Below are positions 10,233-50,661 of a stretch of DNA of 64,000 nucleotides, piece by piece. Every line of letters starts with the position of its first letter. Within the stretch, counting starts at the first letter, position 1. The position numbers and the translations under genes were made by a program. The notes under the pieces are model-generated. The model searched no databases and was not told the origin of the DNA. It saw nothing but the letters and a program-made list of their open reading frames with translations. The stretch is from Escherichia coli (GTDB lineage: Bacteria > Pseudomonadota > Gammaproteobacteria > Enterobacterales > Enterobacteriaceae): NCBI RefSeq assembly GCF_016903815.1, contig NZ_CP069973.1; one strand, written 5' to 3'.

Positions 10233-11423
10233 TTACACTTTTAACTTTCTAGAAAATAAATTTTTCGCTTTTCTGTAAAATGGTAGTTTTTTATTCTTAA
10301 TGGATTTTTCAAGTTTATTCAGCTTTGGCTTACATGTTCGAAGCTCTTGCACAGTCTCTCTAACATAGAGCTGCGTTTGTGTTAGTGGCGGAATTAACCC
10401 ATTATATAGTTTTTTTATATAGTTAATACATAGCTGTGAAGCATTTACCTCTTTATCTACGTAAAAAAGACTTTCACGAAGATTTGATGCTCTTAATACA
10501 ATATCTTGACAGTTATTGAGACAGTGAATTATGGATGGTTCAAAATCAGAAAGACTAGTGCAAACATAACCTATCTCGTCTCTATGTTTAAACTCTAAAG
10601 ATGTAAGATCAAATTTTTGAATACCTATTTTGTTTTTCAATCCAGCTTGATATAGAAGAATAGGTTTTTCTGCATACATACCGTCAAATATAGCCCCAGA
10701 AAAATCACTTATAATCAAATCTGCCGCACAAAGCAATTTTAATTGGTCCGCAGAACCATCGTAAACATGTTTTAAGTTTGCTTTATTTGCAGAATCTACC
10801 CATTCAGGTATTTTTGCATCATTATTGTGATGCATCTTTAATATAAGATTATATTTTGATTGTAACCGAGATATTGTATCCAGAAGTTCAAAATATGAAC
10901 CCAACTCCCCCCAAGTAGGCATGTAAAGCAATGTCTTTTTGGTTATATCTAATTTTAATTCTTTATAAAGCTCTTCTCTATTTGAGTACTTTTGTTTGTA
11001 CTCTAACCAATTATCAAACTTTGGATTTCCAACAGGATAGGATGGCGCATAGTGAGAAACAATATTAGATGAATAGTCACCATACATTAAATTCATGTCA
11101 GCAAGAGAACGCCATTCACCATAATTATGGCGCTCCTTTGCTAAACCATATTGTATTGAAACTAATTTACTATTTTTAATTTTCTCAATACCAGGAAAAG
11201 CCGACTGAAAAAGTAAGATATCATGAGTCCCATCAATAACGGGAACATCATGGGGCTCAATATACACTACATTCCATGATTTGTTATTAATTAACTTCTT
11301 GGGAAACAAGGCAAGGTTATTGTTTTTCCTAATAATAAAAATAGTTGGTTTTTCTAATTTTAATGCAATAGATTTGAATTGAATCAACTGGAATGGATTC
11401 CAGATTATAAATCCTACTTTCAT
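10233..11423 (-). CDS. TagB/TagF-like CDP-glycerol glycerophosphotransferase (putative capsule polymerase/primase)
   Basis: 396 aa ORF; C-terminal motif DLIISDFSGAIFDGMYAEKPILLY resembles the teichoic-acid glycerophosphotransferase signature; next to a cytidylyltransferase. Confidence 0.6.
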   Translation of the reverse strand: MKVGFIIWNPFQLIQFKSIALKLEKPTIFIIRKNNNLALFPKKLINNKSWNVVYIEPHDVPVIDGTHDILLFQSAFPGIEKIKNSKLVSIQYGLAKERHNYGEWRSLADMNLMYGDYSSNIVSHYAPSYPVGNPKFDNWLEYKQKYSNREELYKELKLDITKKTLLYMPTWGELGSYFELLDTISRLQSKYNLILKMHHNNDAKIPEWVDSANKANLKHVYDGSADQLKLLCAADLIISDFSGAIFDGMYAEKPILLYQAGLKNKIGIQKFDLTSLEFKHRDEIGYVCTSLSDFEPSIIHCLNNCQDIVLRASNLRESLFYVDKEVNASQLCINYIKKLYNGLIPPLTQTQLYVRETVQELRTCKPKLNKLEKSIKNKKLPFYRKAKNLFSRKLKV

Positions 11424-11429
11424 ATTTAT

Positions 11430-12689
11430 TCACTTTGTAATTTGTTCAAAAATTATTCTTTCTTTATCCCATTCATGCAGGTGGGTTCCCACTTCATTCT
11501 CATCAACAAAATAATGAGTATGAAAATCTTTATTGTTATGGAAATGAGTAAAACCGAACAAACATTCTTTGGGTATTTTACCAACTATAGAGTAAACCCA
11601 ATAGGCAACTGCTAGTCCTGTACTTGGTAGACCATCTAGTTTTTTTATAAGTGATTTGTACACATGATTTGGTATAACCGTATATTCCATTTCCATTAAT
11701 TGTGGAGCAAGAAAATATTTGTTTGCATCTCTTCTTTTTATTGTGAAATTATTCGCCGCAAAAATAACAAGTCTATTGTTTTTGAGATTATTATTGCTTA
11801 CTTCTTTATTTGCCACTCTAACCCATATATCCTGCTTTGTACCATAATCATCCGGATAGTCCAGGGTATAATTGTTTATTCTAATCACTGTTTTTTTAGA
11901 ATCAATCAACGCTCCATGACCGGTATTTATTTCTGTTGGTGCATTCCCAACAATACAAAAACTACCAGCGGAATTTCTAATTGATTTTATAAACTCATTT
12001 CGTGATTTTAAGATGTGAGAATATTGTTCACTTCCTCTTTGTATATATGGATCATTAAAAATCTTATTCTTTTTAATCTTGTTAAAAACATAAGGACTGC
12101 TTGTATATTTCAACAGAAACTTTTTCCCTATTTGCTTAATAATTTCATTAGCTTTAGCATCCTTATCATTTTGATATAACATTATTGCCAAGCGTAATTT
12201 TTGACTTTTATTTAAATTTCTCAATGATACATCAGAGCAAAGTCGTGATATTATTCTTTTAAGCCTGTCTGATTTATAGCCATATTTTTGTGAAATAAAA
12301 TCAGAATACCTAAGATTAATAGTTATTTCTTTATTTCTGTAATGCGCTGAAATAAAATGTTTTTCTGTAATATCGCTATAGTTACGATATCTTAGTAACC
12401 AATCAGCAATTGAGTAATGAATGTAACGTGATTTTACTTTATTGAATAAGTAAAAAGGTACTATCCCTACATTATCATGCGTTTTTTTTATCTTTATAAA
12501 CAGCAAAGAATTAATAAAATGAAAAAAATGAACTTTACGTATAAACCAAGAACCTTGTAACTTCACCACATTATCTTCACCTATAAAAATGAGTAATCTC
12601 ATTATTAGCTTGTCATAAATACTATATCTAGAAAAATAAACATCTTGCGCTTTTTTTATGAGTATTTTCTTTATTGACATATTATGCAA
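11430..12689 (-). CDS. Putative glycosyltransferase with sialyltransferase-like L-motif
   Basis: 419 aa ORF; segment SFCIVGNAPTEINTGHGALIDSKKTVIRINN resembles the C-x-VGN-x-P ... ID ... V-R-N motif of GT29/GT42-type transferases; assignment tentative. Confidence 0.5.
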   Translation of the reverse strand: MHNMSIKKILIKKAQDVYFSRYSIYDKLIMRLLIFIGEDNVVKLQGSWFIRKVHFFHFINSLLFIKIKKTHDNVGIVPFYLFNKVKSRYIHYSIADWLLRYRNYSDITEKHFISAHYRNKEITINLRYSDFISQKYGYKSDRLKRIISRLCSDVSLRNLNKSQKLRLAIMLYQNDKDAKANEIIKQIGKKFLLKYTSSPYVFNKIKKNKIFNDPYIQRGSEQYSHILKSRNEFIKSIRNSAGSFCIVGNAPTEINTGHGALIDSKKTVIRINNYTLDYPDDYGTKQDIWVRVANKEVSNNNLKNNRLVIFAANNFTIKRRDANKYFLAPQLMEMEYTVIPNHVYKSLIKKLDGLPSTGLAVAYWVYSIVGKIPKECLFGFTHFHNNKDFHTHYFVDENEVGTHLHEWDKERIIFEQITK

Positions 12690-12782
12690 GTTTCTTTTGT
12701 TAGTTCGCTCTAAGCCTCAACAGACATAGGTGTTCATTCCCTTTTCAAGGGGATGAACACCTACCTGAACATAAACATTAAT

Positions 12783-13178
12783 TTAACTGTATTTTTTAAT
12801 CTCCGTAATAAGTTTTGTAGTAGAAATGCCTTCCGTCCTTGGTAAATAAATAACCTCGCATAACTTTTTAAACATATCAAACTTTCCTTCCCAATCATTA
12901 CCCATAATAAGAATGTTAGCTTTATATTTTTTTATATACTCACCTTTTAATTCAAGTGACTCCTCAAGAAATACGTCATCAACATATTGTAGAGAACGAA
13001 TAATTTCACATCGCTCATTTTCTGGGTAAACTGGGTATCTTTGCTTTTTAGAGAAACTTAATGCATCGGATGACACGCCAACAATTAATCGATCACCATA
13101 TTTCTTTGCTCTTTCTAAAATTTTAATGTGGCCAATATGTAAAACATCAAATGTTCCAAAGGTTATGACTGTACGCAT
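12783..13178 (-). CDS. Glycerol-3-phosphate cytidylyltransferase (TagD-like)
   Basis: About 131 aa; N-terminal ITFGTFDVLHIGHIKIL contains the HxGH nucleotidyltransferase signature and matches the TagD-family start; ORF track gives 12783..13190, start trimmed to the Met before RTVITFGTFD. Confidence 0.7.
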   Translation of the reverse strand: MRTVITFGTFDVLHIGHIKILERAKKYGDRLIVGVSSDALSFSKKQRYPVYPENERCEIIRSLQYVDDVFLEESLELKGEYIKKYKANILIMGNDWEGKFDMFKKLCEVIYLPRTEGISTTKLITEIKKYS

Positions 13179-13347
13179 TGTATATTCCAATTTATATAAA
13201 GAGAGATTTTTTGATAACGGAAATCAAGATTTAGCAAAATAAATACCATCGCCATCAACCTCACCTCATAAAGTCAGTAAATACAAATGAGAACAAGGTG
13301 ATTTCGTGATAATAATTGCATGAATTACACAACTTGAATGAAGATAA

Positions 13348-14022
13348 TCAATATGTATTAATTGTTATGTTGTTTTTATACTCCTCTATCCCCTCCTGAA
13401 CATCCTCATGAAAACTAACCGCATTATCATCCATAAACACAATGGCCACATCGCAAAACTCTTTCAATGAATTCAAACTATGTGAAACCATTAAAAAACT
13501 AGATTCTTTATGCCTTTCTTTAAACAATTGAGCGCACTTTTCTTTAAACCTGGCATCACCGACCGCCGTTACTTCATCGACGATATAATAATCAAACTTA
13601 AATGCCATGCTTAAACCAAAGCCCAGGCGAGATCGCATACCTGATGAGTAAGTTTTAATCGGCATATCAAAGTACTTACCGAGTTCGGCAAATTCTTCGA
13701 CAAACTCAATTTTCTCTTTCAGTTCTTCTTGCTTCGCGTATAACCGCGCAACAAATTTTACGTTTTCGCGTCCGGTTAAACTTCCCTGAAATCCACCTGC
13801 GAGGCCGACTGGCCATGATATTGTTTTATTAGTGATGATCTTTCCACTGTCGGGGCGGTCAATGCCGCCAATCATTCTCAGTAACGTTGATTTACCCGCT
13901 CCGTTGCGACCAATAAAGGCAACACTTTTTCCTGAAGGGATTTCAATATTTAAATCCTTAAAGACATAGTGTCGACCCGTTGGCGTGCGATAGGACTTCG
14001 TCAAATTCTCAATCTTAATCAT
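13348..14022 (-). CDS. kpsT: Capsule ABC transporter ATP-binding protein KpsT
   Basis: 224 aa ORF; Walker A GRNGAGKST, ABC signature YSSGMRSRLGF, Walker B YYIVDE; ATGA overlap with kpsM. Confidence 0.92.
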   Translation of the reverse strand: MIKIENLTKSYRTPTGRHYVFKDLNIEIPSGKSVAFIGRNGAGKSTLLRMIGGIDRPDSGKIITNKTISWPVGLAGGFQGSLTGRENVKFVARLYAKQEELKEKIEFVEEFAELGKYFDMPIKTYSSGMRSRLGFGLSMAFKFDYYIVDEVTAVGDARFKEKCAQLFKERHKESSFLMVSHSLNSLKEFCDVAIVFMDDNAVSFHEDVQEGIEEYKNNITINTY

Positions 14023-14795
14023 GATGTCAGCATTGCCTCTTCACGCGTTCGGTATAACGCCAGACCGATGAACAGGGTGACCAGAGTGAACATTGCCAGG
14101 TAGTTCAGACTTACGCCTTCGCTGATATAGCCAGGCATAACAGCCTCGCGGCTTAGCTCCACCACATGTACTAATGGGTTCCAGAGTAGATATGACCAGT
14201 ATTGCTTTGGAATCGAGTGTAGAGGGAACATGATGCAGGAGATGAAATACAGCGGCTTAAGCAGTATCGGCAGAACCTTTTGCATTTCGGGGAAGGTTTT
14301 ACCAACGACCATGAATATTAAGCCGACGCCACATGAAAGAATGATCAGCAGGCTCCAGGTAGCCACAAGTTGTAAAAAATTTGTTATCTCGAAATATTCG
14401 CCTGCCATCCAGACAATGAGCATAAGCAGAATATAAACAGCAACGTAAATCAGTGTCTCAAGCAGTGCGCGTGCAATGATCGTATCGATGGGTTTTACTG
14501 GTCGATAATTAAACAACCCCTGATTCGCTTCAATAGCACCTACAGAACGATTGCTGATACTGCTAAAGATAAAAAAGGGAATCAGGCCATTAAGTAAAAA
14601 CACCGGGAATGAGATGTCTGGCATCGTGCGGTGCATAATGTAACCAAAAATGCCCAACAGTATCAGCAAATGCGCAGAGGGTTCGAGAATCGCCCACAAA
14701 TATCCCAGACGGAACTTACCAAAGCGTGTTCGTATTTCTCGTAGAAATAATGCCTCTACGGTGACTTTCTGGACTTCAAATCCACTTCTTGCCAT
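14019..14795 (-). CDS. kpsM: Capsule ABC transporter permease KpsM
   Basis: 258 aa polytopic membrane protein starting MARSGFEVQKVTVEALFLREIRTRFG; the ORF track extends to 14936 but that extension covers the ops element and is not coding. Confidence 0.9.
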   Translation of the reverse strand: MARSGFEVQKVTVEALFLREIRTRFGKFRLGYLWAILEPSAHLLILLGIFGYIMHRTMPDISFPVFLLNGLIPFFIFSSISNRSVGAIEANQGLFNYRPVKPIDTIIARALLETLIYVAVYILLMLIVWMAGEYFEITNFLQLVATWSLLIILSCGVGLIFMVVGKTFPEMQKVLPILLKPLYFISCIMFPLHSIPKQYWSYLLWNPLVHVVELSREAVMPGYISEGVSLNYLAMFTLVTLFIGLALYRTREEAMLTS

Positions 14796-15855
14796 TTGAT
14801 GATGTGATCCTAATCTCTTCAGGTACGCTACCGCCCCTGGCTTAACAGCTACCAATACACTGGAGGTAATACTTGACTTGTTTGTAACTGGATAAAATTC
14901 ATTCGGACGGCTTGACCTTTTAATAGCCAAAAACAATTTCAGCAGAAATTATTTCCGCAGGGATAAATAGATCTATTTCCGTCTCGTTTCTTCTAATCCA
15001 TTCTTCAGGCATGAATGTATTCGGTCTTCTGGTAATTTCAGAAAACTGGCCGTTTTAGAATGCAGAGTTAATTTCTCAGGAAATTATTTTTTGTGATTAC
15101 TGTTAACTACTTGATTATAATATCCCCTATGGATTTTATGCGTAACAATACCTACAATCTGTTTCAAACCAGAACGCACGCGATTGATTACCAATAAATT
15201 GTTCACCGAGAAACTATTTCCCTATTTAAAATTCACTCGTGTACTTCTTATTTATATCTACAGCCCCCTCTTTACAGCCATATTTGTGATTCATATCACA
15301 TTTAAATGGTGTTATTTAAGTCGCATCAATAATCCCGAAGGTAATTATTTTCGTCGATTAAAATATACATCTTGATTATTTTGTGTGTTTATTTTAACCA
15401 GTGTTACAACCAACACCATCCCTCAGTAGATATACCTGAGCAGACATTTCTTAAAATCAACGAATAGTTTCACTGGAAATTATTATGCTTATTTGAAATT
15501 CCCTTTCTGATTATCTCCAGGAATTTTACTAATTTCCAAGCTACACAAAATACAGATCACACAAGAATTATCCTATATGTTTTGGCCTATCAATTGTTAC
15601 TCAATGATTTATTGCAACTATTAATAATCATAATGTGTCAAAACACTTAAGCAACTTTACAGTCTGAGAAAGGTGTCGATTAACGAAGGCTACATGGTGA
15701 AAAACAGGTTCCTTCAGTGTTACCGAATATTCCGTGGTGGTCTGGAGGGAGATAATTCTTGCTACATCGAAACTCAGCCCGGTAAGCGGGTTTGACAGTT
15801 CCGCACTCACCATTGGGCTAAGGGTTATCAGGTGGGGTTAAGGAAATGGCAATAC
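14796..15855 (-). promoter_or_regulatory. kps region 3 promoter and long untranslated leader (capsule-island to backbone junction)
   Basis: About 1 kb AT-rich non-coding region between kpsM and gspM with no convincing ORF; the region 3 promoter is known to lie several hundred bp upstream of kpsM. Exact -10/-35 not assigned. Confidence 0.5.
14824..14835 (-). promoter_or_regulatory. ops-like element (RfaH recruitment site) within a JUMPstart-like leader upstream of kpsM
   Basis: Minus-strand sequence GGCGGTAGCGTA about 30 nt upstream of the kpsM ATG matches the ops core GGCGGTAG; this is the known position for kps region 3. Confidence 0.8.
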
Positions 15856-43399: not shown

Positions 43400-43784
43400 C
43401 AGCAGATCGCATTCCATAGTTCTGTTCTGTGGGTAACAAATAATTAACGGTGACAAACAGGTTGCAACAGCAACGAACGGCACCTTAATAATCAACCCAA
43501 TGAATACAAACGACGAATAAATAGTATTTATTAATGATTACGATAAGGTCAGAGACTACACAGAAGCGCCACAATGCCTTTTGTCGATTTAAGGCGACCG
43601 GACAAGGCTTCTTCTTAATATATTCATAAATTAAATATCATTCACAATAAAAACAAAAAAACTCAAACTCATTATTTAAATCAATGTTCATTTTCACACT
43701 GATGAAAATACTATCTCATTTATCTTTTATGCCTATATAATCCACCGCATTATTGTCATTTTATTTTGGATATCCAATTTTTTC

Positions 43785-45515
43785 GTGGTGTATATGTCTA
43801 ATAAAATCTTTACGCATTCCCTACCTATGCGCTATGCCGATTTTCCAACGCTTGTTGATGCTTTGGACTACGCCGCTCTGAGTAGCGCCGGAATGAATTT
43901 TTATGACAGACGTTGCCAACTTGAAGATCAACTGGAATATCAGACGTTAAAAGCACGTGCCGAAGCTGGTGCGAAGCGGTTGTTATCGCTGAACCTGAAA
44001 AAAGGCGATCGCGTGGCACTGATTGCCGAAACAAGTAGCGAGTTCGTAGAGGCTTTTTTTGCCTGCCAGTATGCCGGCTTAGTCGCCGTCCCGTTGGCGA
44101 TTCCAATGGGCGTTGGTCAGCGGGATTCCTGGAGCGCCAAATTGCAGGGTTTACTGGCAAGTTGCCAGCCCGCAGCCATTATCACTGGTGATGAGTGGTT
44201 GCCACTGGTCAATGCCGCGACGCATGACAACCCCGAATTACATGTTTTAAGCCACGCCTGGTTTAAGGCATTACCGGAAGCCGATGTTGCGCTCCAGCGT
44301 CCAGTTCCGAACGATATCGCCTACCTCCAGTACACCTCCGGCAGCACCCGTTTTCCCCGTGGCGTCATTATCACCCATCGCGAAGTGATGGCTAATCTAC
44401 GTGCTATAAGCCACGACGGCATTAAATTACGCCCTGGCGACCGCTGCGTCTCCTGGCTGCCTTTCTACCATGATATGGGACTGGTCGGCTTTCTCCTGAC
44501 CCCCGTCGCCACGCAGCTTTCAGTAGATTATTTGCGCACTCAGGATTTTGCCATGCGTCCTCTGCAATGGCTTAAATTGATCAGTAAAAATCGCGGCACC
44601 GTTTCCGTTGCGCCGCCGTTTGGCTATGAATTGTGCCAGCGCCGCGTGAATGAAAAAGATCTCGCTGAACTGGATCTTTCCTGCTGGCGCGTCGCTGGTA
44701 TTGGTGCAGAACCCATCTCCGCAGAACAACTCCATCAATTCGCTGAATGTTTCCGTCAGGTTAACTTTGACAATAAAACTTTCATGCCGTGCTACGGACT
44801 GGCAGAAAATGCGCTGGCTGTCAGCTTCTCTGATGAAGCCTCCGGGGTTGTGGTTAACGAAGTGGATCGCGACATCCTCGAATATCAGGGTAAAGCCGTC
44901 GCGCCGGGTGCAGAGACACGCGCCGTATCGACTTTCGTCAACTGCGGCAAAGCGTTGCCGGAACATGGTATTGAAATCCGCAATGAAGCAGGTATGCCGG
45001 TCGCGGAACGTGTGGTAGGCCATATTTGCATCTCCGGTCCCAGTCTGATGAGCGGTTACTTTGGCGACCAGGTTTCGCAAGACGAGATTGCCGCGACGGG
45101 CTGGTTAGACACCGGCGACCTCGGTTATCTGCTGGACGGTTATCTGTATGTCACCGGACGCATTAAAGATCTGATTATTATTCGTGGCCGTAATATCTGG
45201 CCGCAGGATATTGAATATATAGCGGAACAGGAACCGGAAATTCATTCTGGCGATGCGATTGCTTTTGTTACCGCCCAGGAAAAAATCATTTTGCAGATCC
45301 AGTGTCGGATCAGCGACGAAGAACGTCGCGGGCAGCTTATCCACGCGCTGGCGGCACGGATCCAAAGCGAATTTGGCGTGACCGCGGCTATCGATCTGTT
45401 GCCGCCCCACAGTATTCCCCGAACGTCCTCCGGCAAGCCTGCCCGTGCGGAAGCGAAAAAACGTTATCAGAAGGCTTATGCTGCCAGTCTTAATGTGCAG
45501 GAATCCCTGGCATGA
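43785..45515 (+). CDS. Fatty acyl-AMP ligase / acyl-ACP synthetase-like adenylating enzyme
   Basis: 576 aa ORF; AMP-binding motif YTSGSTRFPRGVIITH, later TGDLG and GRIKDLIIIRGRN motifs; 4-bp overlap with the next gene. Confidence 0.85.
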   Translation: MVYMSNKIFTHSLPMRYADFPTLVDALDYAALSSAGMNFYDRRCQLEDQLEYQTLKARAEAGAKRLLSLNLKKGDRVALIAETSSEFVEAFFACQYAGLVAVPLAIPMGVGQRDSWSAKLQGLLASCQPAAIITGDEWLPLVNAATHDNPELHVLSHAWFKALPEADVALQRPVPNDIAYLQYTSGSTRFPRGVIITHREVMANLRAISHDGIKLRPGDRCVSWLPFYHDMGLVGFLLTPVATQLSVDYLRTQDFAMRPLQWLKLISKNRGTVSVAPPFGYELCQRRVNEKDLAELDLSCWRVAGIGAEPISAEQLHQFAECFRQVNFDNKTFMPCYGLAENALAVSFSDEASGVVVNEVDRDILEYQGKAVAPGAETRAVSTFVNCGKALPEHGIEIRNEAGMPVAERVVGHICISGPSLMSGYFGDQVSQDEIAATGWLDTGDLGYLLDGYLYVTGRIKDLIIIRGRNIWPQDIEYIAEQEPEIHSGDAIAFVTAQEKIILQIQCRISDEERRGQLIHALAARIQSEFGVTAAIDLLPPHSIPRTSSGKPARAEAKKRYQKAYAASLNVQESLA

Positions 45516-46426
45516 ATCAAACTGTCGCGGTGACGGGCGCTACCGGGTTTATCGGTAAATATATTATCGATAACCTGCTCGCCCGCGGCTTTCACGTTCG
45601 CGCATTGACGCGTACTGCCCGCGCTCACGTCAATGATAATCTCACCTGGGTGCGCGGTTCGCTGGAAGATACTCATTCACTTAGCGAGCTGGTTGCCGGA
45701 GCCAGCGTAGTGGTCCATTGCGCCGGGCAAGTGCGCGGGCACAAAGAAGAGATTTTCACCCGCTGTAACGTTGACGGCAGCCTGCGCCTGATGCAAGCAG
45801 CAAAAGAGAGCGGCTTTTGCCAACGTTTTCTGTTTATCTCTTCGCTGGCGGCGCGCCATCCCGAGCTCTCCTGGTATGCAAAATCCAAATACGTCGCCGA
45901 GCAACGACTGGCAGCAATGGCGGACGAAATTACGCTGGGCGTTTTTCGCCCGACAGCCGTGTATGGTCCCGGCGATAAAGAGTTAAAACCGCTGTTTGAC
46001 TGGATGCTGCGCGGCCTGCTGCCACGACTTGGTGCGCCAGATACACAGCTCTCTTTTCTGCACGTCACCGATTTCGCGCAAGCAGTGGGTCAGTGGTTAA
46101 GCGCCGAAACTATACAGACGCAAACCTATGAATTATGCGATGGCGTCGTCGGCGGCTATGACTGGCAACGCGTACAGCAACTTGCCGCCGACGCCCGTTG
46201 CGGTTCCGTGCGAATGGTTGGCATTCCTCTGCCGGTACTCACCGGCCTTGCGGATATCAGTACCGCGTTGAGTCGCCTGGCAGGTAAAGAACCTATGCTG
46301 ACCCGCTCGAAAATTCGTGAATTAACCCACGCCGACTGGTCGGCAAGTAATAACCGTATTTCTGAAGATATTAATTGGTTTCCCGGGATTAGCCTGGAAC
46401 ACGCATTACGCAACGGGCTATTTTGA
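45512..46426 (+). CDS. NAD(P)-dependent epimerase/dehydratase-family reductase (candidate ketosphinganine/ceramide reductase)
   Basis: 304 aa ORF; N-terminal Rossmann motif VTGATGFIGKY; operon position between the adenylating enzyme and the ACP. Confidence 0.8.
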   Translation: MNQTVAVTGATGFIGKYIIDNLLARGFHVRALTRTARAHVNDNLTWVRGSLEDTHSLSELVAGASVVVHCAGQVRGHKEEIFTRCNVDGSLRLMQAAKESGFCQRFLFISSLAARHPELSWYAKSKYVAEQRLAAMADEITLGVFRPTAVYGPGDKELKPLFDWMLRGLLPRLGAPDTQLSFLHVTDFAQAVGQWLSAETIQTQTYELCDGVVGGYDWQRVQQLAADARCGSVRMVGIPLPVLTGLADISTALSRLAGKEPMLTRSKIRELTHADWSASNNRISEDINWFPGISLEHALRNGLF

Positions 46427-46457
46427 TTGTCTTGTTTAAAGGTGTGTTAACGTTTCT

Positions 46458-46706
46458 ATGGTAAATCGTGAAATAGTAATGGATTACATCCTTTCCTGTT
46501 TACAGGATTTGGTCGAAAACGGTGTGGAAATTAAGCCCGACAGCGATCTCGTCAACGATCTTGGCCTGGAGTCGATCAAAGTGATGGATCTCTTAATGAT
46601 GCTGGAAGACAGATTCGATATTTCCATTCCTATTAATATTCTGCTGGATGTCAAAACCCCTGCGCAATTAATGGAAACTCTACTTCCATGGCTGGAGAAT
46701 AAATAA
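46458..46706 (+). CDS. Dedicated acyl carrier protein
   Basis: About 75-82 aa; phosphopantetheine attachment motif DLGLESI; acidic; stop overlaps the start of the following synthase gene. Confidence 0.8.
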   Translation: MVNREIVMDYILSCLQDLVENGVEIKPDSDLVNDLGLESIKVMDLLMMLEDRFDISIPINILLDVKTPAQLMETLLPWLENK

Positions 46707-47878
46707 TGGGGCTATACGATAAATATGCGCGCCTTGCTGGCGAGCGACTGCAATTTAGTGACAACGGGTTAACACCGTTTGGCACCTGTATTGATGAAGT
46801 GTATTCCGCCACCGAAGGCCGGATCGGCAATAAAAAAGTGATTCTGGCCGGGACCAATAATTATCTCGGTTTAACCTTTAATCATGATGCCATCAGCGAA
46901 GGTCAGGCCGCGTTAGCGGCCCAAGGTACCGGCACCACCGGTTCTCGTATGGCAAACGGCAGTTATGCGCCGCACCTGGCGTTAGAGAAAGAGATTGCCG
47001 AGTTTTTCAATCGCCCTACCGCTATCGTTTTTTCAACCGGTTATACCGCTAATTTAGGCGTCATCAGCGCACTTGCCGACCATAACGCCGTGGTGTTACT
47101 GGATGCCGACAGCCACGCCAGTATTTATGACGCCTGTTCTCTCGGTGGCGCGGAAATTATTCGTTTCCGCCATAACGATGCTAAAGATCTGGAACGGCGC
47201 ATGGTTCGCCTCGGTGAACGGGCGAAAGAGGCGATTATCATCGTTGAGGGTATCTACAGCATGCTCGGTGACGTTGCGCCGTTAGCGGAAATTGTTGATA
47301 TCAAACGTCGTCTCGGTGGTTATTTGATTGTCGATGAAGCGCATTCGTTTGGCGTGTTAGGCGCAACGGGGCGCGGACTGGCTGAAGCTGTCGGCGTTGA
47401 AGATGATGTGGATATTATCGTTGGCACCTTCAGTAAAAGTCTGGCCTCGATTGGCGGTTTTGCTGTCGGTTCGGAAGCGATGGAAGTGCTGCGCTACGGC
47501 AGCCGCCCGTATATTTTTACCGCCTCTCCTTCTCCGTCCTGCATTGCGACCGTGCGCTCGTCGTTAAGAACTATTGCCACACAACCAGAGCTGCGGCAAA
47601 AGCTGATGGATAATGCCAACCATCTGTATGACGGTCTGCAAAAACTGGGTTATGAGTTAAGTTCACATATTAGCCCGGTAGTGCCGGTAATAATCGGTTC
47701 GAAAGAGGACGGTTTACGCATCTGGCGCGAGCTTATTTCGCTGGGCGTTTATGTGAATCTTATCCTGCCACCTGCCGCGCCTGCAGGCATCACGCTGCTG
47801 CGCTGTAGCGTAAACGCTGCTCACAGTCGTGAGCAAATCGATGCCATCATTCAGGCATTTGCTACTCTGAAGCAGTAA
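46706..47878 (+). CDS. Alpha-oxoamine synthase, serine palmitoyltransferase-like (PLP-dependent)
   Basis: 390 aa ORF; PLP-lysine region GTFSKSLASIGGF typical of the AOS family (Spt/KBL/BioF/CqsA); paired with an ACP and an acyl-AMP ligase. Confidence 0.85.
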   Translation: MGLYDKYARLAGERLQFSDNGLTPFGTCIDEVYSATEGRIGNKKVILAGTNNYLGLTFNHDAISEGQAALAAQGTGTTGSRMANGSYAPHLALEKEIAEFFNRPTAIVFSTGYTANLGVISALADHNAVVLLDADSHASIYDACSLGGAEIIRFRHNDAKDLERRMVRLGERAKEAIIIVEGIYSMLGDVAPLAEIVDIKRRLGGYLIVDEAHSFGVLGATGRGLAEAVGVEDDVDIIVGTFSKSLASIGGFAVGSEAMEVLRYGSRPYIFTASPSPSCIATVRSSLRTIATQPELRQKLMDNANHLYDGLQKLGYELSSHISPVVPVIIGSKEDGLRIWRELISLGVYVNLILPPAAPAGITLLRCSVNAAHSREQIDAIIQAFATLKQ

Positions 47879-47883
47879 TGTGA

Positions 47884-47916
47884 GCCCGCCGTGGTGTTGC
47901 GCCACGGCGGGTTTAA
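47884..47916 (+). terminator. Rho-independent terminator-like hairpin between convergent genes
   Basis: Perfect 10-bp GC-rich stem CCCGCCGTGG/CCACGGCGGG followed by TTTAATGTT, just after the Spt-like stop and overlapping the stop of the convergent permease gene. Confidence 0.6.
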
Positions 47917-48992
47917 TGTTGTCTGTCATACCAATACACCAGGCTCAACGCCACCAGCACAAACGCTATCGGTAAACCGAGCGCGGTAACAGGTGCGCTC
48001 AACGCAAATAGCAATCCCAGATTGACCATGATTTGATAGCTGATCCAGGTGAGTAAGCCAACGATGACACCTACAGCGAGACGGCTACCCATCCCTGGCG
48101 AGCGCGGGGCGCTAAAGGTAAACGGCACAGCCAGCAAAATCATCGCCAGGGTCAGGATGGGTTGCCCCAGTTTTTCCCACAGTGCAAGGCGGTATTCGCT
48201 GCTGGGTTGCCCGGTTTCCTGCAAATAATGGATGTAATGATTAAGCTGACGGACAGAAAAAGTATTGCCCGGCATTGATAACTCTTCAAGATCCATACTG
48301 GTGAAGGCCGATTGCCAGGCAAGATTATCTAATGTTTCCAGCGTTTCTTTGCCATTCAGCCATTTTTTATGATTCACACCATGCAGGATCCACGTTTTGT
48401 CGTCTTCAATGGTGGCACTGCGTGCATAAATGTAGGATTCGAGCGAGAGATCGTCGCGATAATGAAAAATCTCCACGCCCACCGGCTGGCCCTGCTCGTT
48501 CAGCGATTTCACCGTCACAAATTCATTACCACGCCTGGCCCACAGCATATTGCCGGTAATGTCATCGTCCTCCCCCAACGCGGTGGCGGTCGATTTGATT
48601 TGCAACGCCTGTTGCTGTAATGGCGACGCTACCCACTCATCTATCGCGCCTAACGAAACAGTCCACAATATCCCTGTAACCAGCGCCACCAGTGCAATAC
48701 GGAAGATAGAAAACCCCATGCTGCGAATGGCGGTAAGCTCACTGTTTTTCGATAACTGCCCCAGGCCGACAATCCCTCCCAATAAGGCGATAAATGGCGA
48801 AAGTTCGACCAGTGTGCGCGGTAAGGTCATTAGCACCACCAGCACCGCCTGAGTCCAGCGATAACCGCCCGGGCTGACATCATCCAGTTCGTTAATCAGG
48901 TTGAAGGTGGTAAAAAGCGGCAGCAATAGCCCTGCGGCGGCGGCAAAACCGAGAAAGAGATGACGGATTAAATAGCGGCTGAAAACATTCAT
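47913..48992 (-). CDS. LptG-like (YjgP/YjgQ family) permease, paralog
   Basis: About 359 aa from MNVFSRYLIRHLFLGF; polytopic membrane protein with a large periplasmic loop; ATGA overlap with the upstream paralog; the ORF track start at 49073 is likely an extension. Confidence 0.75.
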   Translation of the reverse strand: MNVFSRYLIRHLFLGFAAAAGLLLPLFTTFNLINELDDVSPGGYRWTQAVLVVLMTLPRTLVELSPFIALLGGIVGLGQLSKNSELTAIRSMGFSIFRIALVALVTGILWTVSLGAIDEWVASPLQQQALQIKSTATALGEDDDITGNMLWARRGNEFVTVKSLNEQGQPVGVEIFHYRDDLSLESYIYARSATIEDDKTWILHGVNHKKWLNGKETLETLDNLAWQSAFTSMDLEELSMPGNTFSVRQLNHYIHYLQETGQPSSEYRLALWEKLGQPILTLAMILLAVPFTFSAPRSPGMGSRLAVGVIVGLLTWISYQIMVNLGLLFALSAPVTALGLPIAFVLVALSLVYWYDRQH

Positions 48993-50059
48993 CGGGAAAA
49001 TTTCTGCAGCAAAGAGAAGTCGCGTGCGACCAGCATCAGCAGGCCCATTAGCATGAGTCCGGGTACTAACCACAAACCAGGAATGAGGGGAATCGCGCCG
49101 TTAGCCACCAGCGTACGGCAGACGTCACCGCCATAAAAAATGGCAATAAACAGCAACGTCAGTGGCAATAACGTTGAAAATCGCCCTTGCCGCGGTTTTA
49201 CCCGACTTAATGAAATGGCCAGCAGCGCCATCAACAATGCGGTCAGGCCACGGCTTTGCCGCCATTGCAGTTCGGCATGATCGGCTGGAAAGACGGAGCG
49301 CGCCAGCTCCGTGACCGATTTCGCTTTGCGTTTGACGTTAGGGCTTTGATCCAGCGGATTCAGATGTAATTGCAGATTACGGTAGATCTGTTCGTTGTCA
49401 TCACGCCCCTGATGATCGATAAGATAGGCAGTGCCGTTGTGCAACATAACGGTCGGTTTCTCGGGTGATGGGTCAATCACATCAACCGAACGGGCGCGGA
49501 AAATGCGGGTTCGATTGGCAGTAGAAGTATAAATCAGCGCGTCAGTCAGGCGATTATTATCCTGATCAACCGTCTGCGAAAGGATCATTCGTCCGTTATC
49601 GTTAGTGTTAAATTTCTTTGCCCGCAACTGGCGAACATCCAGCTCCGACTGCGACTGCTGCTCCAGTTGATAAATCTGCGCATAAGCCCACGGACGACCA
49701 TACATCGACAGAAGGGTGACAAAAATACTTAGCGGTATCGCCAGATAAAGAACGGCTTTGTACAAGCGTCCCGGACTGCCCCCCGCCGCAGAGATAGCGG
49801 TAATTTCCGAGTCGGTATACATCTGCCCTAGCGTCACGCCAACTGACACATACAGACCAACAGGTAACAACATCTCCAGTGCAATCAGTACTTTGTAGAA
49901 AACGATATCCAGCACAACATCAAGAGCTAATGTCCCATTTGCCGCTTCGGTCAGATAACGCTGTGCGGAGTAGCTGGCGAAAATAAAGATCAGAAAACCG
50001 ACGATAATCAGCACCAGACGGCGCGTACCACGCATGATGTAGTGTTCAACCAGCTTCAT
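48989..50059 (-). CDS. LptF-like (YjgP/YjgQ family) permease, paralog
   Basis: 356 aa polytopic membrane protein with a periplasmic loop; paired with the LptG-like gene; no adjacent ABC ATPase. Confidence 0.75.
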   Translation of the reverse strand: MKLVEHYIMRGTRRLVLIIVGFLIFIFASYSAQRYLTEAANGTLALDVVLDIVFYKVLIALEMLLPVGLYVSVGVTLGQMYTDSEITAISAAGGSPGRLYKAVLYLAIPLSIFVTLLSMYGRPWAYAQIYQLEQQSQSELDVRQLRAKKFNTNDNGRMILSQTVDQDNNRLTDALIYTSTANRTRIFRARSVDVIDPSPEKPTVMLHNGTAYLIDHQGRDDNEQIYRNLQLHLNPLDQSPNVKRKAKSVTELARSVFPADHAELQWRQSRGLTALLMALLAISLSRVKPRQGRFSTLLPLTLLFIAIFYGGDVCRTLVANGAIPLIPGLWLVPGLMLMGLLMLVARDFSLLQKFSR

Positions 50060-50089
50060 CTCACTAACGCCCTCAATCCTTTGAGTTTT

Positions 50090-50653
50090 TTATTCATTGA
50101 TCAGTTTCTGCGCCAACGCAATGACATGATCTACCTCTTCCGGCGTCAGGCTGCCGTCCTTTGCCCACTGAATTTGCCCGGCTTTATTCAGCACCAGAAT
50201 GGTTGAACTCTGCTCCGGCAAGCGCCAGGCAACGCGTCCCTGTCCATTGCCGTCAATAACGAATTGCGCCCACGGATAGCGGCGTTTATTTTTTTCGATT
50301 TTGCCAACAACAAAATAGCCAGTACCAAAGATGGCATCATCGGTGTTCACAATGGTGGTGGGCTGAAAACGATCCTGCGGAAAGTTTGCCGCTTCAACCG
50401 CTTTAATTAACAGTGAGTTCTTTTTCTTCGCCGACTTACGCCCGGCGATATACTGAATAATGCGGACTTTTCCCGCTAATTGTGTGCTGTTCCACTTTTG
50501 GTAGTGAATTTCGTCGTCGCTATTCAGAAGCAGCTCGCCGCCTTCCTGGATATAAACAGGGGTAACCGTTTTGCCAGTGACGAAATTGTGTGCCTGCACA
50601 CCCGGGGCTAAGAGCATGATAATCAACGCAATAATCAAACGAGATGACATCAT
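50090..50653 (-). CDS. YtfJ-family-like periplasmic protein
   Basis: 187 aa ORF with signal peptide (MMSSRLIIALIIMLLAPGVQA); family assignment from recollection of YtfJ-like proteins, not verified. Confidence 0.6.
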   Translation of the reverse strand: MMSSRLIIALIIMLLAPGVQAHNFVTGKTVTPVYIQEGGELLLNSDDEIHYQKWNSTQLAGKVRIIQYIAGRKSAKKKNSLLIKAVEAANFPQDRFQPTTIVNTDDAIFGTGYFVVGKIEKNKRRYPWAQFVIDGNGQGRVAWRLPEQSSTILVLNKAGQIQWAKDGSLTPEEVDHVIALAQKLINE

Positions 50654-50661
50654 TGCTCCGG

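What the first reader, a model, noticed from the sequence alone, without database searches (positions are those of the whole stretch)
47913..50059. Orphan LptF/LptG-like permease pair without a cognate ATPase, convergent on the lipid operon
Two translationally coupled YjgP/YjgQ-family membrane proteins sit immediately 3' of the Spt-like operon. Canonical LptF/LptG pair with the ABC ATPase LptB to extract LPS, but no ATPase gene is adjacent here. This second pair could be a dedicated extractor for the predicted lipid product, borrowing LptB or another ATPase.
Basis: partly seen in the sequence, partly recalled or inferred. Interest (0 to 1): 0.65.

Follow-up and report, generated by a model that had tools for sequence, protein, structure and literature searches.

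The report
Second LptFG pair for sphingolipid export
This is a real second copy of the E. coli membrane proteins that pull lipopolysaccharide out of the inner membrane; it sits in the ceramide (sphingolipid) gene cluster, most likely exports that lipid using the shared LptB motor, and this idea was already published for Caulobacter in 2024-2026.

Summary
Window 48989-50059 (-) and 47913-48992 (-) encode full-length LptF-type and LptG-type permeases, with stop and start overlapping by 4 nt. The window is E. coli chromosome. The pair lies between the ceramide operon (yghO, aasR, cerR, acpR, spt) and ytfJ, an orphan gene and yghQ.

They are extra paralogs. The canonical lptFG is in 5425 of 5426 complete E. 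coli genomes, including one identical to the window over this pair. The second pair is in 4131. K-12 lost it through an IS5-associated deletion.

"No adjacent ATPase" is not an anomaly, because canonical lptFG is also far from lptB.

In 80 loci from other species, F2 is always followed by G2 and never flanked by pepA. Ceramide genes are nearby wherever enough flank exists. The coupling-helix glutamates are invariant and dN/dS is 0.04-0.12. The LptG residues that bind lipid A phosphates (K34, K40, K41, R133) are replaced by N/D, D/E, D and L/I.

That preprint also draws the E. coli UTI89 locus. The E. coli proteins themselves are untested. Verdict: real, interpretation supported, already known, modest interest.

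The parts
48989..50059 (-). lptF2: LptF-type permease, 356 aa
   Evidence: PF03739 E 1.8e-53. TIGR04407 317.8 bits. 29% identity to K-12 LptF. AlphaFold model pLDDT 83.4; best PDB matches are LptF chains, TM 0.81. E85 aligns with LptF E84.
47913..48992 (-). lptG2: LptG-type permease, 359 aa (true start is the ATG at 48992, not the GTG at 49073)
   Evidence: PF03739 E 1.7e-69. TIGR04408 309.1 bits. 28% identity to LptG over 350 residues. Model pLDDT 84.8; best PDB matches are LptG chains, TM 0.83-0.86. E85 aligns with LptG E88.
48989..48992 (-). ATGA overlap of the lptF2 stop and the lptG2 start (translational coupling)
   Evidence: Sequence read. A 4-nt overlap is found in 71 of 79 orthologous loci.
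47881..47915 (.). GC-rich hairpin in the 34-nt gap between the convergent spt and lptG2 genes; probable shared terminator
   Evidence: 16 pairs, 10 of them G-C, the strongest terminator-like site in 43400-54600.
50090..50653 (-). ytfJ-family periplasmic protein, directly upstream of lptF2 in the same operon
   Evidence: TIGR01626 212 bits. An N-terminal signal-peptide-like sequence is visible. Co-conserved with F2G2 in Enterobacterales only. No solved relative.
50662..51486 (-). 274-aa protein with no recognised family; same operon
   Evidence: No NCBIfam, Pfam or PDB match. Co-conserved with F2G2 in Enterobacterales.
51486..52835 (-). yghQ-type MOP-family flippase, first gene of the tightly spaced - strand gene run; candidate flippase for the lipid
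   Evidence: Weak MOP flippase match, NF007773 E 1.9e-08. PGAP calls it 'lipopolysaccharide biosynthesis protein'. Truncated by IS5 in K-12.
43827..47878 (+). aasR-cerR-acpR-spt operon (acyl-ACP synthetase, reductase, specialised ACP, serine palmitoyltransferase), convergent on lptG2
   Evidence: PGAP annotation. NCBIfam fatty acyl-AMP ligase 877.9 bits. The E. coli B enzymes were characterised in PMC9386255.
42275..43417 (-). yghO: bacterial ceramide synthase (bCerS/aca) homolog
   Evidence: Named as the 'aca' gene of the E. coli BL21 cluster in PMC9386255. It is the ceramide gene most constantly linked to F2G2: 47-52% identical copies lie next to F2G2 even in Nitrosomonadaceae.
52881..55252 (.). 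yghR (frameshifted in this window), yghS and yghT: P-loop proteins resembling dTMP kinase, co-located with the cluster in many Enterobacterales

Best explanation
The two genes encode LptF2 and LptG2, the membrane half of a second Lpt-type lipid extractor. Shown here: they have the complete LptF and LptG architecture (three TM helices, a periplasmic beta-jellyroll, three more TM helices). They keep the cytoplasmic coupling helix with its invariant glutamate. They are co-translated as a pair. They are additional to the housekeeping lptFG. They are inherited together with the ceramide biosynthesis genes in many proteobacteria. Inferred: ceramide-based lipid is made in the cytoplasm by AasR, AcpR, Spt, YghO (bCerS) and CerR, and is flipped to the periplasmic leaflet, probably by the MOP-family YghQ in Enterobacterales. 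An LptF2-LptG2 heterodimer then takes it up laterally and expels it from the inner membrane. The power comes from the cell's single LptB dimer docking on the conserved coupling helices. The lipid then passes along the Lpt bridge to the outer membrane. The lipid A phosphate and core contacts on LptG TM1 (K34, K40, K41) and R133 are replaced by neutral or acidic residues, while a subset of basic residues is kept (G2 R59 and K133; F2 R34 and R315). This argues that the cavity has been re-tuned for a smaller, differently charged head group and does not carry LPS.
For: Family and fold. Extra copy: the canonical pair is in 5425 of 5426 E. coli genomes, including strain 7/2, and the second pair is in 4131. 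The aasR-spt operon is in 4183, so the two are kept or lost together at the population level. Synteny: in 80 loci from other species, G2 follows F2 in 79 of 79 and pepA is never adjacent. At least one ceramide gene is present in 71 of 80, and the other 9 loci are all cut short on the upstream side. spt is present in 59 and all five genes in 51. Coupling helices: F2 E85 and G2 E85 are invariant in all 80-81 sequences, as are G2 L86 and G93. These correspond to LptF E84 and LptG E88, which mediate LptB binding (PMC5082905). No stand-alone LptB-like ATPase lies in any F2G2 neighbourhood, and lptB occurs at one place per E. coli genome at DNA level. Substrate-site changes against the residue list of PMC6744409: K34 becomes D/N/T/E, K40 becomes D/E in 80 of 80, K41 becomes D in 76 of 80, and R133 becomes mostly L/I. 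K34E is lethal in LptG. Purifying selection: dN/dS 0.04-0.12. Experiments in a related system: Caulobacter LptF2 and LptG2 co-purify with each other and with LptB, and can only be deleted when spt or cpgB is deleted. The same authors draw the UTI89 locus, which has the gene order of the window.
Against: Nothing has been measured in E. coli. Native sphingolipid production by E. coli has not been reported in the papers read here; only activities of overexpressed enzymes have. Sequence orthology to the Caulobacter pair could not be tested. PMC11324152 reports only 24-25% identity between the Caulobacter pair and the Azotobacter and P. luteola pairs, which is no closer than F2 is to canonical LptF. 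The accessory genes in E. coli (ytfJ, the 274-aa orphan, yghQ, yghRST) differ from the Caulobacter/Pseudomonas CPG-type set, so the transported head group is unknown. The use of LptB, and of LptC, LptA and LptDE, is inferred. The residue mapping in TM1 rests on alignments at about 28% identity, although the G alignment is almost gap-free.
Confidence: 0.72

Rival explanations
1. A redundant or condition-specific second LPS exporter, as the database names 'LPS export ABC transporter permease LptF/LptG' imply.
For: Both proteins exceed the NCBIfam equivalog cut-offs for LptF and LptG, and PGAP names them accordingly. The fold is that of LptF and LptG.
Against: The LptG residues that contact lipid A phosphates and inner core are replaced across the whole clade: K34 by N/D, K40 and K41 by D/E, R133 by L/I. 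K34E is lethal in LptG. The pair is absent from about 24% of E. coli genomes, including K-12. It always travels with ceramide genes and never with pepA. In Caulobacter its deletion is tolerated once sphingolipid synthesis is removed.
Confidence: 0.05
2. An extractor for the cluster's lipid that is powered by an ABC ATPase other than LptB.
For: No partner has been shown in E. coli, which has many ABC ATPases. Pseudomonas-type clusters contain an MsbA/HepA-like ABC protein.
Against: That Pseudomonas protein is a fused TMD-NBD exporter of 575 aa, not a stand-alone NBD, and it is absent from the enterobacterial clusters. No stand-alone NBD is consistently linked to F2G2. The coupling-helix residues needed for LptB docking are invariant. 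In Caulobacter both proteins pull down LptB.
Confidence: 0.08
3. An exporter of a different, non-sphingolipid envelope glycolipid made by the - strand operon (yghQ flippase, the 274-aa orphan, ytfJ, yghRST), with the adjacency to spt being incidental in E. coli.
For: In E. coli, lptF2G2 is transcribed with ytfJ, the orphan and yghQ, not with spt. yghQ belongs to the MOP flippase family, which usually handles lipid-linked glycans.
Against: Outside Enterobacterales the ytfJ, orphan and yghQ genes are absent, yet F2G2 still sits beside bCerS and spt. The constant partner of F2G2 is therefore the ceramide pathway.
Confidence: 0.08
4. A silent, decaying remnant without present function.
For: K-12 lost the region without obvious cost. 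Truncated and fused variants occur in some E. coli and Shigella sequences. yghR is frameshifted in this window.
Against: dN/dS is 0.04-0.12 with no internal stops in seven comparisons. Intact copies are found in most of 4105 genomes and in many genera. Functional residues are invariant.
Confidence: 0.03

Closest known systems
Caulobacter crescentus LptF2 (CCNA_01214 / CC_1156) and LptG2 (CCNA_01213 / CC_1155), sphingolipid-locus paralogs of LptFG (PMC11324152; bioRxiv 10.64898/2026.04.12.717747)
   Same: A second F+G pair in addition to the canonical one. It is encoded inside the ceramide/sphingolipid locus next to bCerS and spt, with no dedicated ATPase in the locus. Proposed role: extracting sphingolipid from the inner membrane using LptB. 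The preprint's Fig. 2B shows the homologous E. coli UTI89 locus, which has the same gene order as the window and is 96.4% identical in DNA over the pair.
   Different: No LptC2 is found in E. coli (the preprint says lptC2 is restricted to Caulobacter). The accessory genes differ: ytfJ, the 274-aa orphan, MOP flippase yghQ and yghRST replace the cpgABC-type genes, so the head group is probably not CPG2. Sequence relatedness to the Caulobacter pair was not testable here, and is reported as only about 24-25% identity for related gammaproteobacterial pairs. No experiments exist for the E. coli proteins.
Canonical E. coli LptB2FGC lipopolysaccharide extractor (LptF b4261, LptG b4262)
   Same: Same family, F then G gene order with overlapping stop and start, same fold (TM 0.8-0.86 to solved chains), and conserved coupling-helix glutamates. 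The genes are likewise not adjacent to lptB.
   Different: Only 28-29% identity. The genomic context differs (ceramide cluster versus pepA/yjgR). It is dispensable at species level, being absent in about 24% of genomes. LPS-phosphate and core contacts are replaced: LptG K34, K40, K41 and R133, and LptF K322 and Q248. The LptF R212 position is Ala or Ser.
LptF R212G/C/S suppressors that bypass LptC (PMC4986956, PMC9972910)
   Same: The conserved G-x-R-[FY] motif of the canonical LptF beta-jellyroll reads G-T-A/S-Y in the whole F2 clade. A small residue therefore occupies the position where small substitutions make LptC dispensable.
   Different: This is a natural state of a paralog, not a selected suppressor. 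Whether it has the same consequence (direct hand-over to LptA without LptC) is inference only.

Membership tests
LptF/LptG permease family (Pfam PF03739; membrane domains of the Lpt-type ABC extractor) | Full-length match to the family profile | tested here: met
   PF03739 covers model positions 2-352 of 353 for F2 and 1-352 of 353 for G2.
LptF/LptG permease family (Pfam PF03739; membrane domains of the Lpt-type ABC extractor) | One F-type and one G-type subunit encoded as an adjacent pair | tested here: met
   TIGR04407 317.8 bits versus TIGR04408 64.5 bits for the upstream protein; TIGR04408 309.1 versus TIGR04407 86.8 for the downstream one. Reciprocal BLASTP. A 4-nt overlap joins the genes.
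LptF/LptG permease family (Pfam PF03739; membrane domains of the Lpt-type ABC extractor) | Fold of 3 TM helices, a periplasmic beta-jellyroll and 3 more TM helices | tested here: met
   AlphaFold models have pLDDT 84.8 and 83.4, with six beta-strands between helices 96-140 and 235-293. The best PDB matches are LptG chains (TM 0.83-0.86) and LptF chains (TM 0.81).
LptF/LptG permease family (Pfam PF03739; membrane domains of the Lpt-type ABC extractor) | Cytoplasmic coupling helix with the strictly conserved glutamate (LptF E84, LptG E88) | tested here: met
   F2 E85 and G2 E85 align to E84 and E88, and are invariant in 81 and 80 sequences respectively.
LptF/LptG permease family (Pfam PF03739; membrane domains of the Lpt-type ABC extractor) | Physical complex with an LptB dimer | not testable with these tools
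   Shown only for the Caulobacter paralogs.
LPS extractor proper (functional LptFG of the LPS pathway) | It is the genome's lptFG copy (universal, in the pepA-lptF-lptG context) | tested here: not met
   The canonical pair is present as well, in 5425 of 5426 genomes including strain 7/2. The second pair is in 4131 and is never next to pepA.
LPS extractor proper (functional LptFG of the LPS pathway) | Basic residues that bind lipid A phosphates and inner core (LptG K34, K40, K41, K62, R133, R136; LptF R33, K317, K322) | tested here: not met
   K34 becomes N (D/N/T/E across the clade), K40 becomes D, K41 becomes D, R133 becomes L, and K322 becomes N. Retained: K62 as R, R136 as K, R33 as R, K317 as R.
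LPS extractor proper (functional LptFG of the LPS pathway) | Essential for LPS export; can support growth as the sole LptFG | not tested
   No experiment is available. A literature search for essentiality data in strains carrying both pairs found nothing.
Sphingolipid-locus LptF2/LptG2 (as defined in Caulobacter) | Encoded within or next to the ceramide synthesis genes, in addition to the canonical lptFG | tested here: met
   The pair is 34 nt from spt, with yghO (bCerS) 4.5 kb away. The linkage holds in 71 of 80 loci of other species, and the remaining loci are truncated.
Sphingolipid-locus LptF2/LptG2 (as defined in Caulobacter) | No dedicated ATPase in the locus | tested here: met
   tblastn with LptB finds no stand-alone NBD near F2G2 in the window or consistently in the 80 loci. 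The Pseudomonas hit is a fused MsbA-like exporter.
Sphingolipid-locus LptF2/LptG2 (as defined in Caulobacter) | Sequence orthology to CCNA_01214 and CCNA_01213 | not tested
The literature reports 24-25% identity between the Caulobacter pair and related gammaproteobacterial pairs.
Sphingolipid-locus LptF2/LptG2 (as defined in Caulobacter) | Deletion is lethal only when anionic sphingolipid is made; F2 and G2 bind each other and LptB | not testable with these tools
   Experimental criteria.

The most novel reading that the evidence does not exclude
In Enterobacterales the F2G2 pair may belong to a distinct sphingolipid export route that differs from the Caulobacter one in three ways. It may serve a non-CPG head group made or handled by the enterobacterial-only genes (ytfJ, the 274-aa orphan, MOP flippase yghQ, P-loop yghRST). 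It may be naturally LptC-independent, because the LptF R212 position is Ala or Ser throughout the clade. And it may mean that about three quarters of E. coli strains can place a so-far undetected ceramide lipid in their outer membrane under conditions not reproduced in the laboratory.
Probability: 0.25. Interest if true: 0.6.

Novelty: already known. Interest (0 to 1): 0.3.

Why it matters
E. coli is usually treated as a sphingolipid-free organism, and K-12, the reference strain, has lost this whole region. Most natural isolates, including uropathogenic strains and BL21, keep an intact, selected ceramide pathway with its own Lpt-type extractor. If the system is active, the essential LptB motor, and possibly the Lpt bridge now being targeted by antibiotics such as zosurabalpin-class compounds, is shared between LPS and a second outer-membrane lipid. 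That would affect envelope physiology, polymyxin and detergent resistance, and host recognition. It also matters for annotation: PGAP labels both pairs 'LPS export permease LptF/LptG', which overstates what is known. None of this is a new concept, since the model has been published for Caulobacter. What remains open is whether and when it operates in E. coli, and with which lipid.

Tried and rejected
1. The look-up of encoding contigs on the two nearest non-enterobacterial representatives (P0127, P0129) returned contigs of only 1.7-2.3 kb with no useful context.

2. A 26-sequence alignment was too diverse for the search for related loci. An 8-sequence alignment worked.

3. I tried to reach the Caulobacter locus by scanning metagenome contigs with the published cpgB primer and found nothing.

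4. I asked whether yghR/S/T might be the ceramide kinase. The Caulobacter kinase CpgB is a DAG-kinase/LCB5-type enzyme, whereas yghS and yghT are P-loop proteins resembling dTMP kinase. I rejected them as CpgB homologs, and their role is unknown.

5. The ABC ATPase hits near F2G2 in Pseudomonas and Azotobacter loci looked at first like a dedicated motor. They turned out to be a fused MsbA/HepA-like exporter, more likely a flippase.

6. Pfam, NCBIfam and PDB sequence searches of the 274-aa protein, and the PDB search of YtfJ, gave nothing.

7. A literature search for transposon essentiality data on lptFG in strains carrying both pairs gave no papers.

8. An Rfam scan of 41-57 kb found no RNA family. 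The promoter-like site count was not above the shuffled expectation.
Full report
**What is there.** The window is E. coli chromosome. The 2147 bases of the finding are 100% identical to strain 7/2 and to many other isolates. In window order the region reads:
- a group 2 capsule locus, the gsp type II secretion genes, sslE, and the glc operon;
- yghO (-);
- aasR, cerR, acpR and spt (+);
- lptG-like, lptF-like, ytfJ-family, a 274-aa orphan gene and yghQ (all -);
- yghR, yghS, yghT, pitB and gss.

Both ORFs of the finding are full-length PF03739 proteins.
- The upstream one (48989-50059) is F-type. It is 29% identical to K-12 LptF (E 3e-22) but scores only E 0.10 against LptG, and TIGR04407 gives 317.8 bits against a cut-off of 230.
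- The downstream one is G-type. It is 28% identical to LptG over 350 residues (E 4e-39), and TIGR04408 gives 309.1 bits against a cut-off of 240.

The real start is the ATG at 48992, which overlaps the F-type stop as ATGA. The same 4-nt overlap occurs in 71 of 79 orthologous loci. A 16-pair GC-rich hairpin at 47881-47915 fills the 34-nt gap to the convergent spt gene. AlphaFold models built from ortholog alignments (pLDDT 84.8 and 83.4) show three TM helices, a beta-jellyroll and three more TM helices. Their best solved matches are LptG chains (TM 0.83-0.86) and LptF chains (TM 0.81). Sequence searches of the PDB agree.

**Extra copy, not the housekeeping one.** The K-12 lptFG sequence is found in 5425 of 5426 complete E. 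coli genomes. In strain 7/2 it lies at 4,916,586-4,918,768, so that strain has both pairs. The second pair is in 4131 genomes and the neighbouring aasR-spt operon is in 4183. In K-12 an IS5 element replaces everything from the 5' end of yghO to the 5' part of yghQ.

The 'orphan' label is misleading. Canonical lptFG lies between pepA and yjgR, while lptB lies with lptC and lptA elsewhere on the chromosome. lptB occurs at one place per genome at DNA level.

**Not degenerate.** Pairwise dN/dS against Escherichia, Pseudocitrobacter, Citrobacter and Pluralibacter orthologs is 0.04-0.12, with no internal stops. The coupling-helix glutamates that mediate LptB binding in LptF (E84) and LptG (E88) (PMC5082905) correspond to F2 E85 and G2 E85. 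Both are invariant in all 80-81 clade members, as are G2 L86 and G93. The second refutation criterion is not met either.

**Linkage to ceramide synthesis.** A scan of one genome per species returned 80 loci encoding F2 relatives at 33-97% identity. They come from Enterobacterales, Pseudomonas, Azotobacter, Nitrosomonadaceae, Nitrococcus, Salinisphaera and deltaproteobacterial MAGs.
- G2 follows F2 on the same strand in 79 of 79 loci.
- pepA is never nearby.
- At least one of yghO, aasR, cerR, acpR or spt lies within the fetched flanks in 71 of 80 loci.
- All nine exceptions have less than 7.5 kb of upstream sequence.
- spt is present in 59 loci and all five genes in 51.
- In the most distant loci (33-38% identity) a bCerS homolog sits about 1 kb upstream of F2.

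The adjacent enzymes are the known E. coli B/BL21 ceramide set: AasR, AcpR and Spt have been characterised biochemically, and yghO and the epimerase-like gene have been assigned as bCerS and CerR (PMC9386255).

**Substrate site.** I used the residue list from the LPS-bound cryo-EM structure (PMC6744409) and an almost gap-free alignment to compare the clade with canonical LptG and LptF.

| Canonical residue | State in the F2G2 clade |
|---|---|
| LptG K34 | D 49, N 23, T 5, E 3 (N31 in E. coli) |
| LptG K40 | D 61, E 19 |
| LptG K41 | D 76 of 80 |
| LptG R133 | mostly L or I |
| LptG K62 | R, retained as basic |
| LptG R136 | K or R, retained as basic |
| LptF R33 | R in 78 of 81, retained |
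| LptF K317 | R or K, retained |
| LptF K322 (inner-core contact) | N or Q |
| LptF Q248 (inner-core contact) | A or S |

K34E is lethal in LptG. V. cholerae LptG keeps K, R and K at the first three positions. This charge reversal across the whole clade argues against LPS as the substrate and for a smaller head group. The argument is an inference from alignment, not a demonstrated specificity.

**A second difference.** Canonical LptF has a G-x-R-[FY] motif containing R212. The F2 clade has G-T-A/S-Y at that place. R212G/C/S are the suppressors that make LptC dispensable and allow a six-protein bridge (PMC4986956, PMC9972910). No LptC- or LptA-like gene is detectable near F2G2, and the Caulobacter preprint states that lptC2 is restricted to Caulobacter. 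A naturally LptC-independent extractor is a reasonable hypothesis, but it is untested.

**ATPase.** tblastn with LptB finds only kpsT in the window, and no stand-alone NBD consistently near F2G2 elsewhere. The hits in Pseudomonas and Azotobacter loci are a 575-aa fused MsbA/HepA-like exporter downstream of spt, more likely the flippase of those clusters. Enterobacterales have the MOP-family yghQ instead. They also have ytfJ, a 274-aa protein with no detectable family, and the P-loop yghR/S/T genes. Pseudomonas-type clusters carry CDP-alcohol-transferase-like and YegS-like kinase genes that resemble the Caulobacter CPG pathway. The E. coli head group is therefore probably different and is unknown.

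**Comparison with the literature.** The Geiger laboratory named CC_1156 and CC_1155 'LptF2' and 'LptG2' and proposed that they move phosphosphingolipids to the outer membrane (PMC11324152). A preprint of April 2026 (Uchendu, Isom and Klein, bioRxiv 10.64898/2026.04.12.717747) reports the following:
- lptF2, lptG2 and lptC2 can be deleted only when spt or cpgB is deleted;
- LptF2 and LptG2 co-purify with each other;
- both proteins pull down the single LptB.

Its Fig. 2B shows the sphingolipid locus of E. coli UTI89, and the text says lptF2 and lptG2 occur in many alpha- and gammaproteobacterial sphingolipid loci. UTI89 has exactly the gene order of the window and is 96.4% identical over the pair. 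No other paper in the library mentions these names.

**Caveats.** No experiment exists for the E. coli proteins, and no report of native E. coli sphingolipid was found. I could not obtain the Caulobacter sequences. The published tables give only 24-25% identity between the Caulobacter pair and the Azotobacter and P. luteola pairs. The latter are 52-54% identical to E. coli F2. The functional transfer therefore rests on conserved synteny and family-level features, not on close relatedness.

**Verdict.** The kind of system is already described, including this locus. What this analysis adds is the prevalence of the pair in E. coli, the breadth of the synteny, the clade-wide replacement of the LPS-binding residues, and the Ala/Ser at the R212 position. 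Interest is modest (0.3).

Noticed in passing
window 52881-53641 (- strand), insertion near 53340: yghR carries a 2-bp GC insertion relative to strain 7/2. It is the only difference in 20 kb, and it splits the 252-aa gene into ORFs of 155 and 102 aa. It could be a real pseudogene or a sequencing error.
   Followed up: partly
window 50059-50092; proteins P0003-P0006, P0014-P0016, P0106: The ytfJ stop and the lptF2 start are 30 nt apart and in frame. The database holds 553-aa YtfJ-LptF2 read-through products. It also holds about 450-aa products combining LptF2 with a PitB (PF01384) segment, which implies deletions of the intervening genes in some strains, and 238-aa truncations in Shigella boydii.
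   Followed up: no
L085 (K-12 MG1655 3,130,146-3,131,340): In K-12 an IS5 (insH9) replaces aasR, cerR, acpR, spt, lptG2, lptF2, ytfJ, the 274-aa gene and the 5' part of yghQ. It also clips yghO. The reference strain therefore lacks the whole system.
   Followed up: yes
window 50662-51486 (- strand): A 274-aa cytoplasmic-looking protein has no Pfam, NCBIfam or PDB relative. It is co-conserved with lptF2G2, ytfJ and yghQ across Enterobacterales (49-90% identity) and absent from Pseudomonas-type clusters.
   Followed up: partly
L047 1644-16273 (Pseudomonas putida ASAD); similar in L041-L048 and L053: Pseudomonas and Azotobacter clusters have a different accessory set around lptF2G2. It comprises a fused MsbA/HepA-like ABC exporter after spt, a nucleotidyltransferase-like gene, a CDP-alcohol phosphatidyltransferase-like gene, a YegS-type lipid kinase and a metallophosphoesterase-like gene. 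This resembles the Caulobacter CPG pathway rather than the E. coli set.
   Followed up: partly
window 1-15000: This is a group 2 capsule (kps) locus. Its region 2 has 30% GC (about 7.6-13.2 kb) and encodes a GT29 glycosyltransferase, a CDP-glycerol glycerophosphotransferase-family protein and a TPR protein. kpsT and kpsM lie at 13348-14795. Only 58 of 5426 genomes match at least 80% of the first 25 kb, so the capsule type is uncommon.
   Followed up: no
window 47913-50059 versus L039 (E. coli SCPM-O-B-8794): Synonymous divergence between two E. coli alleles of the pair is high: dS 0.24 for F2 and 0.49 for G2. This suggests old allelic lineages or recombination at this locus.
   Followed up: no
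L026 (record titled Martelella alba BGMRC 2031): A contig attributed to an alphaproteobacterium carries an enterobacterial-type cluster: F2 at 64% identity, with ytfJ, the orphan gene, yghQ and yghRST. It is probably contamination or misassignment of the assembly.
   Followed up: no
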